From: the human T2T-CHM13v2.0 reference genome, Homo sapiens
Length of the DNA: 64,000 nucleotides
Strand: one strand, 5' to 3'
NCBI RefSeq assembly: GCF_009914755.1
Contig: NC_060927.1
The notes under the pieces are model-generated. The model did not search any database. It saw only the letters and a program-made list of their open reading frames with translations, and was not told the DNA's origin. Positions 10,726-13,700 of the stretch are shown here, piece by piece. Each line of letters begins with the position of its first letter. Position 1 is the first letter of the stretch. A program made the position numbers and the translations under genes.

Positions 10726-13700
10726 TTTTTTTTTTTATTATTATACTTTAAGTTCTGGGGTAAATGTGCACAACATGCAGGTTTGTTACATATGTATACA
10801 TGTGTCATGTTGGTGTGCTGCACCCATTAACTCGTCATTTACATTAGATATACCTCCTAATGCTATCCCTCCTCCCTCCCCCCACCCCACGACAAGCCCC
10901 GATGTGTGATGTTCCCCACCCTGTGTCCAAGTGTTCTCATTGTTTAGTTCCCACCTATAAGTGAGAACATGCAATGTTTGGTTTTCTCTCCTTGCAATAG
11001 TTTGCTTAGAATGATGGTTTCCAGCTTCATCCATGTCCCTACAAAGGACATGAACTCATCTTTTTTATGGCTGCAGAGTATTGCATGGTGTATATGTGCA
11101 TAGTATTCCATGGTGTATGTGTATTAATCCAGTCTATCATTGATGGACATTTGGGTTGGTTCCAAGTCTTTGCTATTGTGAATAGTGCCGCAGTAAACAT
11201 ACGTATGCATGTGTCTTCATAGCAGCATGATTTATAATCCTTTGGGTATATACCCAGTAATGGGATGGCTGGGTCAAATAGTATTTCTAGTTCTAGATCC
11301 TTGAGGAATTGCCACACTGTCTTCTACAATGGCTGAACTAGCATGTAGTCCCACTAACAGTGTAAAAGTGTTCCTATTTCTCCACATCCTCTCTAGCACC
11401 TGTTGTTCCCTGATTTTTTAATGATCACTATTCTAACTGCTGTGAGATGGTATCTCATTGTGGTTTTGATTTGCATTTCTCTGATGGCCAGTGATGATGA
11501 GCATTTTTTTCATGTGTCTGTTGGCTGCATAAATGTCTTCTTTTGAGAAGTGTCTGTTCATATCCTTTGCCCACTTTTTGATGGAGTTGTTTGATTTTTT
11601 CTTATAAATTTGTTTAAGTTATTTATAGATTCTGGATATTAGCCCTTTGTCAGATGAGTAGATTGCAAAATTTTTCTCCCATTCTGTAGGTTGCCTGTTT
11701 ACTCTGATGGTAGTTTCTTTTGCTGTGCAGAAGCTCTTTAGTTTAATTAGATCCCATTTGTCAATTTTAGCTTTTGTTGCCATTGCTTTTGGTGTTTTAG
11801 TCATTTTGTCCATGATGTCCTGAATGATATTGCCTAGGTTTACTTCTAGGGTTTTTATGGTTTTAGGTCTTAGGTTTAAGTCTTTATTTCATCTTGAGTC
11901 AATTTTTGTATAAGGTGTAAGGAAGGGAAGGGGTCCAGTTTCAGTTTTCTGCATATGGCTAGCCAGTTTTCCCAACACCATTTATGAAGTAAGGAATCCT
12001 TTCCCCATTGCTTGTTTTTGTCAGGTTTGTCAAAGATCAGATGGTTGTAGCTGTGTGGTGTTATTTCTGAGGCCTCTGTTCTGTTCCAGTTGTCTATATA
12101 TCTGTTTTGGTACCAGTACCATGCTGCTTTGGTTATGGTAACCTTGTAGTGTAGTTTGAAGTGAGACAGCATGATGCCTCCAGCTTTGTTCTTTTTGGTT
12201 AGGATTGTGTTGGCTATTTGGGCTGTTTTTTGATTCCATAAGAAATTTAAAGTAGTTTTTTCCAATTCTGTGAAGAAAGTCAGTGGTAGCTTGATGGGGA
12301 TAGCATTGAATCTATACATTACTTTGGGCAGTATGGCCATTTTCACAATATTGATTCTTCCTATCCATGAGTATGCAATGTTTTTCCATTTGTTTGTGTC
12401 CTCTTTTATTTCCTTGAGCAGTGATTTGTAGTTCTTGAAGTGGTCCTTCACATCCCTTGTAAGTTGTATTCCTAGGTATTTTATTCTCTTAGTAGCAGTT
12501 GTGAATGGGAGTTTGCTCATGATTTGGCTCTCTGTTCTTGGTGTATAGGAATGCTTGTGATTTTTGCACATTGATTTTGTATCCTGAGACTTTGCTGAAG
12601 TTGCTTATCAGCTTAAGGAGATTTGGGGCTGAGATGATGGGGTTTTCTAAATATACAATCATGTCATCTGCTAACAGAGACAATTTGACTTCCTCTTTTC
12701 CTATTTGAATACCCTTTATTTCTTTCTCATACCTGATTGCCCTGGCCAGAACTTCCAATACTATGTTGAATAGGAGTGGAGAGAGAGGGCATCCTTGTTT
12801 TATGCCGTTTTTCAAAGGGAACGCTTCCAGTTTTCGTCCATTCAGTACGATATTGGCTGTGGGTTTGTCATAAGTAGCTCTTATTATTTTGAGATACGTT
12901 CCATCAATACCTAGTTTATTGAGAGTTTTTAGCATGAAGGAGTGTTGAATTTTGTTGAAGGCCTTTTGTGCAACTATTGAGATAATCATGTGGTTTTTGT
13001 CATTGGTTCTGCTTATGTGAATAGATTACGTTTATTGATTTGTGTATGATGAACCAGCCTTGCATCCCAGATAAGAAGCCAACTTGATCATGGTGGATAA
13101 GCTTTTTGATGTGCTGCTGGATTCGGTTTGCCAGTATTTTATTGAGGATTTCTGCATCGATGTTCATCAGGGATATTGGTCTAAAATTCTCTTTTTTTGT
13201 TGTGTCTTTGCCAGGCTTTGGTATCAGGATGATGTTGGTCTCATAAAATGAGTTAGGGAGGATTCCCTCTTTTTCTATTGATTGGAATAGTTTCAGAAGG
13301 AATGGTACCAGCTCCTCTTTATACCTCTGGTCGAATTTGGCTGTGAATCCGTTTGGTCCTGGACTTTTTTTGGTTGGTAGGCTATTAATTATTGCCTCAA
13401 TTTCAGAACCTGTTATTGGTCTATTCAGGGATTCATCTTCCTGGTTTAGATGTGGGAGGGTGTATGTGTCCAGGAATTTATCCATTTCTTCTAGATTTTC
13501 TAGTTTATTTGTGTAGAGGTGTTTATAGTATTCTCTGATGTTAGTTTGTATTTCTGTGGGATTAGTGGTGATATCCCCTTTATCATTTTTTATTGCGTCT
13601 ATTTGATTCTTCTCTCTTTTCTTCTTTATTAGTCTTGCTAGTGGACTATCAATTTTGTTGATCTTTTCAAAAAACCAGCTCCTGGATTCATTGATTTTTT

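What the first reader, a model, noticed from the sequence alone, without database searches (positions are those of the whole stretch)
11765..13450. About 1.7-kb gene-conversion tract between two different-subfamily L1s in the same gene
Seen: this L1 (10726-16851) and the L1 at 34199-41066 have different 5'UTR types and differ outside the tract (ETTIR/YSSD vs ETIIR/YPSD; KAVCRG vs KAVFTG). Within 11765-13450 vs about 35320-37020 they share many changes absent from the L1PA ORF2 consensus as recalled: a 6-nt deletion giving MDKMTKTPK (consensus MGKDFMTKTPK), [19 protein letters not shown] ([10 protein letters not shown]), [30 protein letters not shown], KNGIxQG (KTGTRQG), SAPNLL, ETNII and QE(E)DESL. 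The tract carries older-type residues (KLPLTFF, NRYID, IQIG). Inference: ectopic conversion (or a double crossover) copied ORF2 from the older, already mutated L1 into the younger L1 23.6 kb away, making it a PA5/PA7/PA5-like chimera. Later divergence between the copies implies an old event.
Basis: partly seen in the sequence, partly recalled or inferred. Interest (0 to 1): 0.85.

Follow-up and report, generated by a model that had tools for sequence, protein, structure and literature searches.

The report
Gene conversion between two neighbouring L1s
About 1.3 kb of a younger L1 retrotransposon in a CCDC66 intron was overwritten long ago with sequence copied from an older, already mutated L1 23.6 kb away, a clear example of a known process.

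Summary
Two full-length L1s, A (10726-16851) and B (34199-41066), lie on the minus strand, antisense to CCDC66. They are 95.4% identical over 11769-13072 but 88.7% and 91.4% identical in the flanks. In that core they share 32 private changes, against 0 in 969 bp on the 3' side and 1 in 1000 bp on the 5' side. They also share a 6-nt deletion and a +1 frameshift inside the reverse-transcriptase domain.

Three signature strings occur exactly only in A and B in the 3.1-Gb genome. A and B are sisters (support 1.0) only in the core. Of 903 copy pairs, none shares as many private variants in one 1304-bp window.

The direction is B to A. A carries B-type states at 10 of 10 diagnostic sites in the core and its own type at 19 of 19 outside. 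Only in the core does A show B's mutation load.

The continuous tract ends at 13072. Between 13073 and 13450 only isolated shared sites remain. The event dates to about A's insertion time. Ectopic conversion between repeats, including L1s, is already in print, so this is a well-documented instance, not a new mechanism.

The parts
10726..16851 (-). L1 copy A, the recipient. It is full-length (6126 bp), of the younger 'alpha' type, and antisense in a CCDC66 intron. A T-run (the poly-A tail read on the + strand) starts at 10726. A candidate target-site duplication GGAATTTTTTT lies at 10722-10732 and 16852-16862.
   Evidence: Motifs lie on the minus strand. Genome relatives match from position 1-14 of A's 5' end at 88-92%. 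The flanks were read by eye. Pfam RVT_1 hits fall in 12560-13470.
34199..41066 (-). L1 copy B, the donor. It is of the older 'beta' type and carries two later Alu insertions. It lacks the last ~195 bp of the 3'UTR and any poly-A run.
   Evidence: BLAST and MAFFT against A. Its best genome relatives are only 83-89% identical. B is 89-91% identical to all panel copies in every ORF2 segment. The low end was read by eye.
11769..13072 (-). Continuous converted tract in A (1304 bp). It lies in the 3' half of ORF2 and includes most of the reverse-transcriptase domain.
   Evidence: 95.4% identical to B against at most 91.9% to any of 41 panel copies. It holds 32 private shared events and 38 shared minority-type states. 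A and B are sisters with support 1.0. A carries the beta state at 10 of 10 diagnostic sites.
35326..36633 (-). Donor tract in B, corresponding to A 11769-13072.
   Evidence: Column mapping. B carries the beta state at 10 of 10 diagnostic sites.
13073..13450 (-). Edge zone in A. It is mostly unconverted, with isolated shared rare sites at 13235, 13239 and 13450. These could be short patches from patchy heteroduplex repair.
   Evidence: 2 rare shared, 7 rare A-only and 13 rare B-only events. A is 93.8% identical to alpha copies here and is not sister to B. ETNII and DESL occur in A and B but in 0 of 41 panel copies.
11805..11806 (-). Junction of the shared in-frame 6-nt deletion, which gives MDKMTKTPK. 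The matching junction in B is at 35362-35363.
   Evidence: 0 of 29 and 0 of 41 panel copies carry it. The 24-nt junction string occurs in the genome only in A and B with up to 1 mismatch.
13021..13021 (-). Shared +1 insertion that shifts the ORF2 frame inside the RT domain. The matching base in B is 36582.
   Evidence: 1 of 41 panel copies carries it. RVT_1 profile positions 1-48 and 63-188 fall in different frames on either side of it.
37152..37460 (-). Alu-type SINE inserted in B with its own target-site duplication. It sits at the position equivalent to A 13582, about 130 bp 5' of the outermost shared site.
   Evidence: The gap in A is seen in the pair alignment. The insert has 7 other matches in the window, and its flanking repeat was read by eye.
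34463..34767 (-). Second Alu-type insertion in B, in the 3'UTR and outside the tract.
   Evidence: A 304-bp gap in A. The end sequences were read by eye.

Best explanation
Ectopic (non-allelic) gene conversion ran from the older L1 copy B into the younger copy A, which lies 23,557 bp away in the same orientation.

INFERRED MECHANISM. A break or gap in A's ORF2 was repaired using B as the homologous template, without crossing over.

SHOWN.
- A continuous 1304-bp stretch of A (11769-13072) was replaced by B's sequence.
- That sequence brought B's subfamily states and B's private decay mutations, including a 6-nt deletion and a +1 frameshift in the RT domain.
- B was left unchanged.
- Both copies have since accumulated similar numbers of new private changes (22 and 24).

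INFERRED TIMING. The event falls at about 43% of B's age, which is indistinguishable from the time A inserted.

INFERRED EDGE. Isolated shared sites out to 13450 suggest that the heteroduplex reached further and was repaired in patches.
For: 1. Tract-limited similarity. A-B identity is 95.4% in the core against 88.7% and 91.4% in the flanks (sliding windows).
2. Private shared events (carried by at most 2 of 41 panel copies): 32 in the core, 0 in 969 bp on the 3' side, and 1 in 1000 bp over 13901-14900. 31 of 34 shared substitutions fall in the core, binomial P = 7e-13.
3. Genome-wide uniqueness. Three strings of 24-30 nt spanning shared changes occur exactly only in A and B. The deletion junction has no other match even with 1 mismatch.
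4. Empirical null. A-B ranks first of 903 pairs with 31 in one window; the other pairs have a median of 2 and a 95th percentile of 4.
5. Trees. A and B are sisters with support 1.0 in the core only. That pair nests among beta copies in a 6-tip clade with support 0.981. They are not sisters in the 3'UTR, the edge or the 5' ORF2 segment.
6. Direction. A carries alpha states at 12 of 12 diagnostic sites in the 3'UTR and 7 of 7 on the 5' side, but beta states at 10 of 10 in the core. B is beta at 8 of 8, 10 of 10 and 5 of 7. A is 94.6% identical to alpha copies on the 5' side but 90.1% in the core, while B stays at about 90% throughout.
7. Dead-copy lesions are shared: a 6-nt deletion and a +1 frameshift inside RVT_1.
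8. Clock. Private A-only and B-only counts in the core are 22 and 24.
Against: - No orthologous primate locus could be examined, so the unconverted state of A was never seen directly.
- The neighbour B was not among the 40 candidates, of 18,276, that the genome search scored. 'Best hit genome-wide' therefore rests on the signature searches and a 41-copy panel, not on an exhaustive alignment.
- A's private-change rate inside the tract equals that in the flanking ORF2 (ratio 0.98, 95% interval 0.53-1.81). A being chimeric from birth is therefore not excluded by timing alone.
- No stop codon is shared. The only shared frame-breaking lesion is a single +1 insertion in a cluster of changes, where the alignment is somewhat ambiguous and 1 of 41 panel copies also carries it.
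- The beta group has only 12 copies, was defined from the 3'UTR, and includes one copy (L031) that is alpha-type at its 5' end.
- Nine rearranged panel copies were dropped before the counts.
Confidence: 0.9

Rival explanations
1. A was chimeric from birth. During the retrotransposition that made A, the reverse transcriptase switched template from an alpha-type L1 RNA to a transcript of B and back again. Alternatively, the fresh integration intermediate was patched from B.
For: A's private-change rate inside the tract equals that in flanking ORF2 (ratio 0.98, interval 0.53-1.81). The conversion age (0.43 of B's age) equals A's relative age (0.43). Template switching by the L1 RT to other RNAs is reported in passages of PMC1920257.
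Against: The pure template-switch form needs two switches, and it needs a chimeric cDNA to land by chance within 24 kb of its minor template in a 3.1-Gb genome. B's ORF2 already carried a frameshift. With both flanks used as the baseline, the ratio is 0.72 (interval 0.42-1.19), which allows a delay after insertion.
Confidence: 0.05
2. Two reciprocal crossovers (a double unequal exchange) between A and B produced the chimera, rather than non-crossover conversion.
For: The product in A would look the same, with the same tract and breakpoints.
Against: B shows no alpha-type patch in the tract: it is beta at 10 of 10 diagnostic sites. The reciprocal product is therefore absent from this chromosome. 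The mechanism also needs two exchanges within 1.3-1.7 kb.
Confidence: 0.03
3. No transfer took place. The shared changes mark a minor L1 sub-lineage from which both copies, or both tracts, descend independently.
For: 38 of the shared states in the core are also seen in 3 or more of 41 panel copies, so they are subfamily-type states. Five unlinked copies carry 2 of the 3 changes behind IMLSHF.
Against: 32 shared events are private. Three signatures occur only in A and B genome-wide. The flanks of A and B belong to different types. A shared frameshift in the RT domain is not expected in an active source lineage.
Confidence: 0.01
4. Conversion ran in the opposite direction, from A into B.
For: Similarity alone is symmetric.
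Against: The tract is beta-type in both copies. Only in the tract does A show excess divergence from its own relatives (90.1% against 94.6%), whereas B is uniform. The A+B clade nests among beta copies.
Confidence: 0.01

Closest known systems
Gene conversion between human L1 copies: a conversion between L1PA3 LINEs and a conversion accompanying recombination between L1PA7 LINEs (PMC5829575, passages read); an intrachromosomal conversion inside an L1 at locus NCLI34 (PMC1920257, passages read)
   Same: A tract of one genomic L1 is replaced by sequence from another L1 on the same chromosome, by homologous recombination without loss of the flanks.
   Different: Those cases are recent or polymorphic events found in reads or in human-chimpanzee comparisons. 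This one is ancient (the copies have since diverged by 4.6%), lies between elements of different subfamily type, and is reconstructed from one genome with its donor, direction, breakpoints and relative date.
Non-allelic gene conversion among Alu elements and LTRs (review PMC6598467, passages read)
   Same: Mosaic patterns of subfamily-diagnostic sites, gene-tree incongruence, and a rate that depends on the distance and identity between copies.
   Different: Alu tracts are at most 300 bp. The review cites elevated rates within 10 kb, whereas here the copies are 23.6 kb apart and the tract is 1.3 kb of coding L1 sequence.
[quoted passage not shown] 2000; seen only as cited in PMC1920257; the paper itself is not held)
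   Same: It gives the likely mechanism: break repair templated by another L1.
   Different: That was an experimental, induced break with donors from many loci and tracts as short as 13 bp. Here the event is natural, in the germline, and the donor is the nearest full-length L1.
Recombinant young L1s screened out in pangenome analyses (preprint PMC13192797, passages read): 22 high-confidence and 13 probable recombinants among 2,267 loci
   Same: L1 copies whose segments have different nearest relatives.
   Different: Those are L1HS/L1PA2-age copies, and the passages read name donor groups rather than individual donor loci. Here one specific neighbouring donor copy is identified by its private mutations.

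Membership tests
Non-allelic (ectopic) gene conversion between dispersed repeats | A discrete tract in which two paralogous copies are much more alike than in their flanks and than either is to other family members | tested here: met
   95.4% in the core against 88.7% and 91.4% in the flanks. The best match of A to any of 41 panel copies in the core is 91.9%.
Non-allelic (ectopic) gene conversion between dispersed repeats | Tree incongruence: the two copies are sisters in the tract only | tested here: met
   FastTree support is 1.0 for A+B in the core (2 of 43 tips). Their common ancestor holds 23 of 42, 16 of 43 and 43 of 43 tips in the three other segments.
Non-allelic (ectopic) gene conversion between dispersed repeats | Shared post-insertion (private) mutations that are absent from the rest of the family | tested here: met
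   32 private shared events in the core. Three signatures are unique to A and B in the 3.1-Gb genome. A-B ranks first of 903 pairs.
Non-allelic (ectopic) gene conversion between dispersed repeats | Non-reciprocal transfer: the recipient takes the donor's states and the donor is unchanged | tested here: met
   A reads alpha / beta / alpha at 12 of 12, 10 of 10 and 7 of 7 diagnostic sites. B is beta in the tract at 10 of 10.
Non-allelic (ectopic) gene conversion between dispersed repeats | No crossover: the flanks and the interval between the copies are retained | tested here: met
   A keeps alpha-type sequence on both sides of the tract. The annotation supplied with the finding places CCDC66 exons 27290-28348 between the copies, in order.
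Non-allelic (ectopic) gene conversion between dispersed repeats | The pre-conversion state is seen at the orthologous locus of an outgroup species or in another haplotype | not testable with these tools
   No primate genome or human pangenome was available. The genome search holds only the window's own genome and prokaryotes.
LINE-1 (L1) retrotransposon, primate lineage | An element of about 6 kb, in high copy number, with an ORF2 encoding a reverse transcriptase | tested here: met
   18,276, 15,543 and 16,283 first-look candidates in the genome. RVT_1 (PF00078) scores E = 1e-22 and 1.6e-8 on A 12560-13470.
LINE-1 (L1) retrotransposon, primate lineage | A 3' poly-A tail and a target-site duplication | tested here: inconclusive
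   A has a T-run at 10726-10736 and a candidate duplication GGAATTTTTTT that merges with the tail, read by eye. B has lost its 3' end.
Named L1PA subfamilies (reader: PA5 for A, PA7 for B) | Best match to the subfamily reference consensus and its diagnostic positions | not tested
   No Dfam or Repbase library was on hand. Only the relative result was obtained: two types that differ in 3'UTR, ORF2 sites and 5' end. Over 15401-16851, A-alpha identity is 86-91%, B-alpha 75-79% and A-B 79.5%.

The most novel reading that the evidence does not exclude
The transfer was coupled to A's own integration, or followed it almost at once. On this reading a newly inserted L1, still carrying nicks or gaps from target-primed reverse transcription, was patched by homologous repair from the nearest resident L1.

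The relative dates coincide. The conversion falls at 0.43 of B's age and A's age is 0.43 of B's age. A's private-change rate in the tract is 0.98 of that in flanking ORF2.

If this were general, fresh L1 insertions near older L1s would often be born or quickly become mosaics. That would bias subfamily calls and age estimates.
Probability: 0.1. Interest if true: 0.55.

Novelty: new member of a known kind. Interest (0 to 1): 0.3.

Why it matters
CALIBRATION CASE. This single-genome example of ectopic conversion between old L1s has an identified donor, direction, near-base-pair 3' breakpoint and relative date. It could serve to calibrate genome-wide scans for such tracts in complete assemblies.

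EFFECT ON L1 DATING. A conversion can double the apparent divergence of part of an element: A is about 10% from its relatives inside the tract against about 5% outside. It can also import foreign subfamily states. Both effects mislead divergence-based dating and subfamily calls for L1s.

THE GENE. The two copies are direct repeats flanking three coding exons of CCDC66 (27290-28348, 468 nt by the supplied annotation). Had the same interaction been resolved as a crossover, those exons would have been deleted or duplicated. The non-crossover outcome left the gene intact. No effect on CCDC66 itself is indicated.

Tried and rejected
- Plus-strand reading of the L1s gave no motif hits. The elements are on the minus strand.
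- 'Best genome hit is the neighbour' could not be shown directly. The search scored only 40 of 18,276 candidates and B was not among them. I replaced it with three signature pattern searches.
The beta reference set is therefore the 12 B-like copies. The 11 cover only the 3' 4.2 kb; L031 is full-length. The difference in 5'UTR type rests on pairwise identities.
- Shared stop codons: none found in the tract. That reference frame drifted near both ends, so only the interior is reliable.
- The five copies one mismatch away from the IMLSHF string were fetched. Two aligned well and are no closer to the tract than other copies (L047 90.6%, L048 89.8%). The other three are rearranged and were dropped.
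- Nine panel copies with rearrangements or poor alignment were dropped before the site counts: L004, L010, L018, L025, L029, L039, L049, L050, L051.
- Papers not held: PMC379164, PMC1356131, PMC85044.
- One Pfam call failed because the B piece contained stop codons and was rerun with the A pieces only.
- Six literature searches listed no paper describing this locus. None of the 8 papers listed of the 55 found contains 'CCDC66'.
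Full report
WHAT IS THERE

The window holds two full-length L1 elements, A (10726-16851) and B (34199-41066). Both lie on the minus strand, antisense to CCDC66. All were found on the minus strand at the stated places. 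The high-coordinate ends are therefore the 5'UTRs, and the tract lies in the 3' half of ORF2.

Pieces of A at 13024-13470 and 12560-13019 match Pfam RVT_1 with E = 1.6e-8 and 1e-22. B carries two Alu-type insertions with their own target-site duplications, at about 34463-34767 and 37152-37460. B also lacks the equivalent of A's last ~195 bp and any poly-A run. A has a T-run at 10726 and a candidate target-site duplication GGAATTTTTTT, read by eye.

THE OBSERVATION

A pairwise alignment gives 94.5-96.5% identity in 200-column windows from about 11700 to 13070. Identity then steps down to 92-95% out to about 13870 and 85-94% further into ORF2. It is 68-88% in ORF1 and the 5'UTR, and 74-88% in the 3'UTR.

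| Segment | A-B identity |
|---|---|
| Core 11769-13072 | 95.4% |
| Edge 13073-13450 | 92.3% |
| 3' side 10800-11768 | 88.7% |
| 5' side 13451-14900 | 91.4% |

IS IT MORE THAN REGIONAL CONSERVATION?

I built a panel of unlinked genomic copies from three sources:
- 29 copies chosen by similarity to A's tract (40 of 18,276 candidates were scored, so this is not exhaustive);
- 16 full-length copies chosen by A's 5' 2.95 kb;
- 5 copies one mismatch away from one signature string.

Nine rearranged or badly aligned copies were dropped, which left 41. In the core, the best match of A to any panel copy is 91.9%, against 95.4% to B.

'Private' below means a state carried by at most 2 of the 41 panel copies. 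'Shared minority-type states' are shared states carried by 3 or more of the 41.

| Region | Length | Shared private | A-only private | B-only private |
|---|---|---|---|---|
| 10800-11768 | 969 bp | 0 | 32 | 35 |
| Core 11769-13072 | 1304 bp | 32 | 22 | 24 |
| 13073-13450 | 378 bp | 2 | 7 | 13 |
| 13451-13900 | 450 bp | 0 | 8 | 14 |
| 13901-14900 | 1000 bp | 1 | 17 | 44 |

The core also holds 38 shared minority-type states. None of the shared substitutions listed is of the CpG type. The only shared deletion is the 6-nt one at 11805. A shared +1 insertion lies at 13021/36582, and B later restores the frame with a private -1 at 36376. That frameshift falls between RVT_1 profile positions 48 and 63. 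No stop codon is shared.

Three strings that are identical in A and B, each spanning shared changes, were searched in the whole 3.1-Gb genome with up to one mismatch:
- The deletion junction occurs only in A and B.
- The IMLSHF string is exact only in A and B, with five one-mismatch copies.
- A third string is exact only in A and B, with three one-mismatch copies.

At the peptide level, the 11 'private' motifs occur in 0-2 of 41 panel copies.

As an empirical null, I counted private shared substitutions for all 903 pairs among the 43 sequences. A-B ranks first with 31 in one 1304-bp window. The other pairs have a median of 2, a 95th percentile of 4 and a maximum of 21. That runner-up pair, L040-L043, shares variants along the whole element (44 in total), as expected of a duplicated segment. 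For A-B, 31 of 34 shared substitutions fall in the core (binomial P = 7e-13).

TREES

In FastTree trees by segment, A and B are sisters with support 1.0 in the core (2 of 43 tips). Their common ancestor holds 23 of 42 tips in the 3'UTR, 16 of 43 in the edge and 43 of 43 in the 5' ORF2 segment. In the core, the A+B pair nests with four B-like copies in a clade with support 0.981. The shared stem is 0.0385 long, and the tips are 0.024 (A) and 0.032 (B).

DIRECTION

The panel splits by 3'UTR similarity into 22 A-like ('alpha') copies, 12 B-like ('beta') copies and 7 ambiguous ones. The table gives the states at sites that separate the two groups.

| Region | Diagnostic sites | A | B |
|---|---|---|---|
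| 3'UTR | 12 | alpha at 12 of 12 | beta at 8 of 8 present |
| Core 11805-13020 | 10 | beta at 10 of 10 | beta at 10 of 10 |
| 14033-14796 | 7 | alpha at 7 of 7 | beta at 5 of 7 |

The grouping is circular only for the 3'UTR row.

Independently, A is on average 94.6% identical to alpha copies on the 5' side and 93.8% in the edge, but 90.1% in the core. B is about 90% from every copy in every segment (per-copy values). A therefore carries B's mutation load only in the core.

The transfer ran from B to A and was non-reciprocal.

BREAKPOINTS

On the 3' side, the last rare B-only change outside the tract is at 11768 and the first rare shared change is at 11769. If 11768 arose in B after the event, the junction lies within 11735-11769.

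On the 5' side, rare shared sites run densely to 13071/13072. A run of B-only changes follows. After that come only 13235 (3 of 41), 13239 (1 of 41) and 13450 (2 of 41), among 13 rare B-only events.

Against a background of about one rare shared site in 2.4 kb outside the tract, these few sites are probably real short patches. That would be consistent with patchy repair of a longer heteroduplex, but this is inference. The Alu in B, at the position equivalent to A 13582, lies about 130 bp beyond 13450. It could have acted as a heterology barrier if it was already present. That was not tested.

DATING

Since the event, A and B have gained 22 and 24 private changes in the core, consistent with a clock.
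- B's post-event share of its private changes is 24 of 56 = 0.43 (95% interval 0.30-0.57).
- A's age relative to B, from the ORF2 flank, is 25 of 58 = 0.43.
- A's private-change rate in the tract is 0.98 of that in flanking ORF2 (interval 0.53-1.81), or 0.72 (0.42-1.19) with both flanks as baseline.

The conversion therefore happened at or soon after A's insertion, when the two copies were most alike.

Absolute age is inference only. Divergence per lineage is 2.3%. That corresponds to roughly 13 Myr at 0.17% per Myr (a rate recalled from Khan et al. 2006, which is not held). It corresponds to about 36 Myr at the 0.64 per billion years quoted in PMC5237266 (passages read).

COMPARISON WITH WHAT IS KNOWN

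Non-allelic conversion among transposable elements is well described.
- The review PMC6598467 (passages) covers mosaic diagnostic sites in Alu, tree incongruence, and dependence on distance and identity.
- PMC5829575 (passages) reports a conversion between L1PA3 LINEs and a conversion accompanying recombination between L1PA7 LINEs.
- PMC1920257 (passages) reports an intrachromosomal conversion inside an L1, and cites break repair of a chromosomal LINE by conversion from endogenous LINEs in mouse cells.
- The preprint PMC13192797 (passages) classed 35 of 2,267 young L1 loci as recombinant.
- The preprint 10.1101/429563 (one passage) states that the modern 5'UTR configuration begins with L1PA6.

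Six searches listed no paper on this locus.

VERDICT

It is a clean instance of a known mechanism, with no sign of an effect on CCDC66. The two copies are direct repeats flanking three coding exons (27290-28348, by the supplied annotation), so a crossover outcome would have removed or duplicated those exons.

The one feature worth following up is that the conversion date coincides with A's insertion date.

Noticed in passing
L040 and L043 (own genome, contig C5, about 245 kb apart): These two L1 copies share 44 private variants spread over the whole 4.1 kb compared (21 in the best 1304-bp window). They are the only pair in the panel near A-B. Sharing along the whole element suggests that both lie in a segmental duplication rather than marking a conversion tract.
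   Followed up: no
L031 (own genome, contig C20:1263900-1270500): This copy was chosen as the best match to A's 5' 2.95 kb, yet its 3'UTR is closer to B (90.0%) than to A (87.5%), so it fell in the beta group. It is either another mosaic or an intermediate subfamily.
   Followed up: no
window 12163-12225 (and B 35718-35780): Four G-to-C transversions (sense strand) at 12163, 12198, 12209 and 12225, plus a C-to-A at 12218, lie within 63 bp. A and B share all of them, and each occurs in 0-1 of 29 panel copies. This looks like a clustered multi-site mutation in B before the transfer.
   Followed up: no
window 37152-37460: The Alu inserted in B sits about 130 bp beyond the outermost shared site (13450, equivalent to B 37020). 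If it predates the conversion it could have limited the heteroduplex. Its age relative to the event was not determined.
   Followed up: partly
window 34150-34230: B's alignment to A begins at the position equivalent to A 10921, with no T-run at the low end. B has therefore lost about 195 bp of 3'UTR and its poly-A tail, and its target-site duplication cannot be checked.
   Followed up: partly
five loci L047-L051 (own genome): Five unlinked L1 copies match the 30-nt IMLSHF string with one mismatch, so they carry 2 of the 3 changes. The two that aligned well are not otherwise closer to the tract (L047 90.6%, L048 89.8%). This is recurrent change or a small sub-lineage.
   Followed up: partly
window 10680-10730: Just outside A's 3' end, the flank contains two near-identical copies of a 15-nt string (TGTACATGG[G/A]ATTTTT) about 35 bp apart, the second ending in A's T-run. 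It was read by eye and remains unexplained.
   Followed up: no
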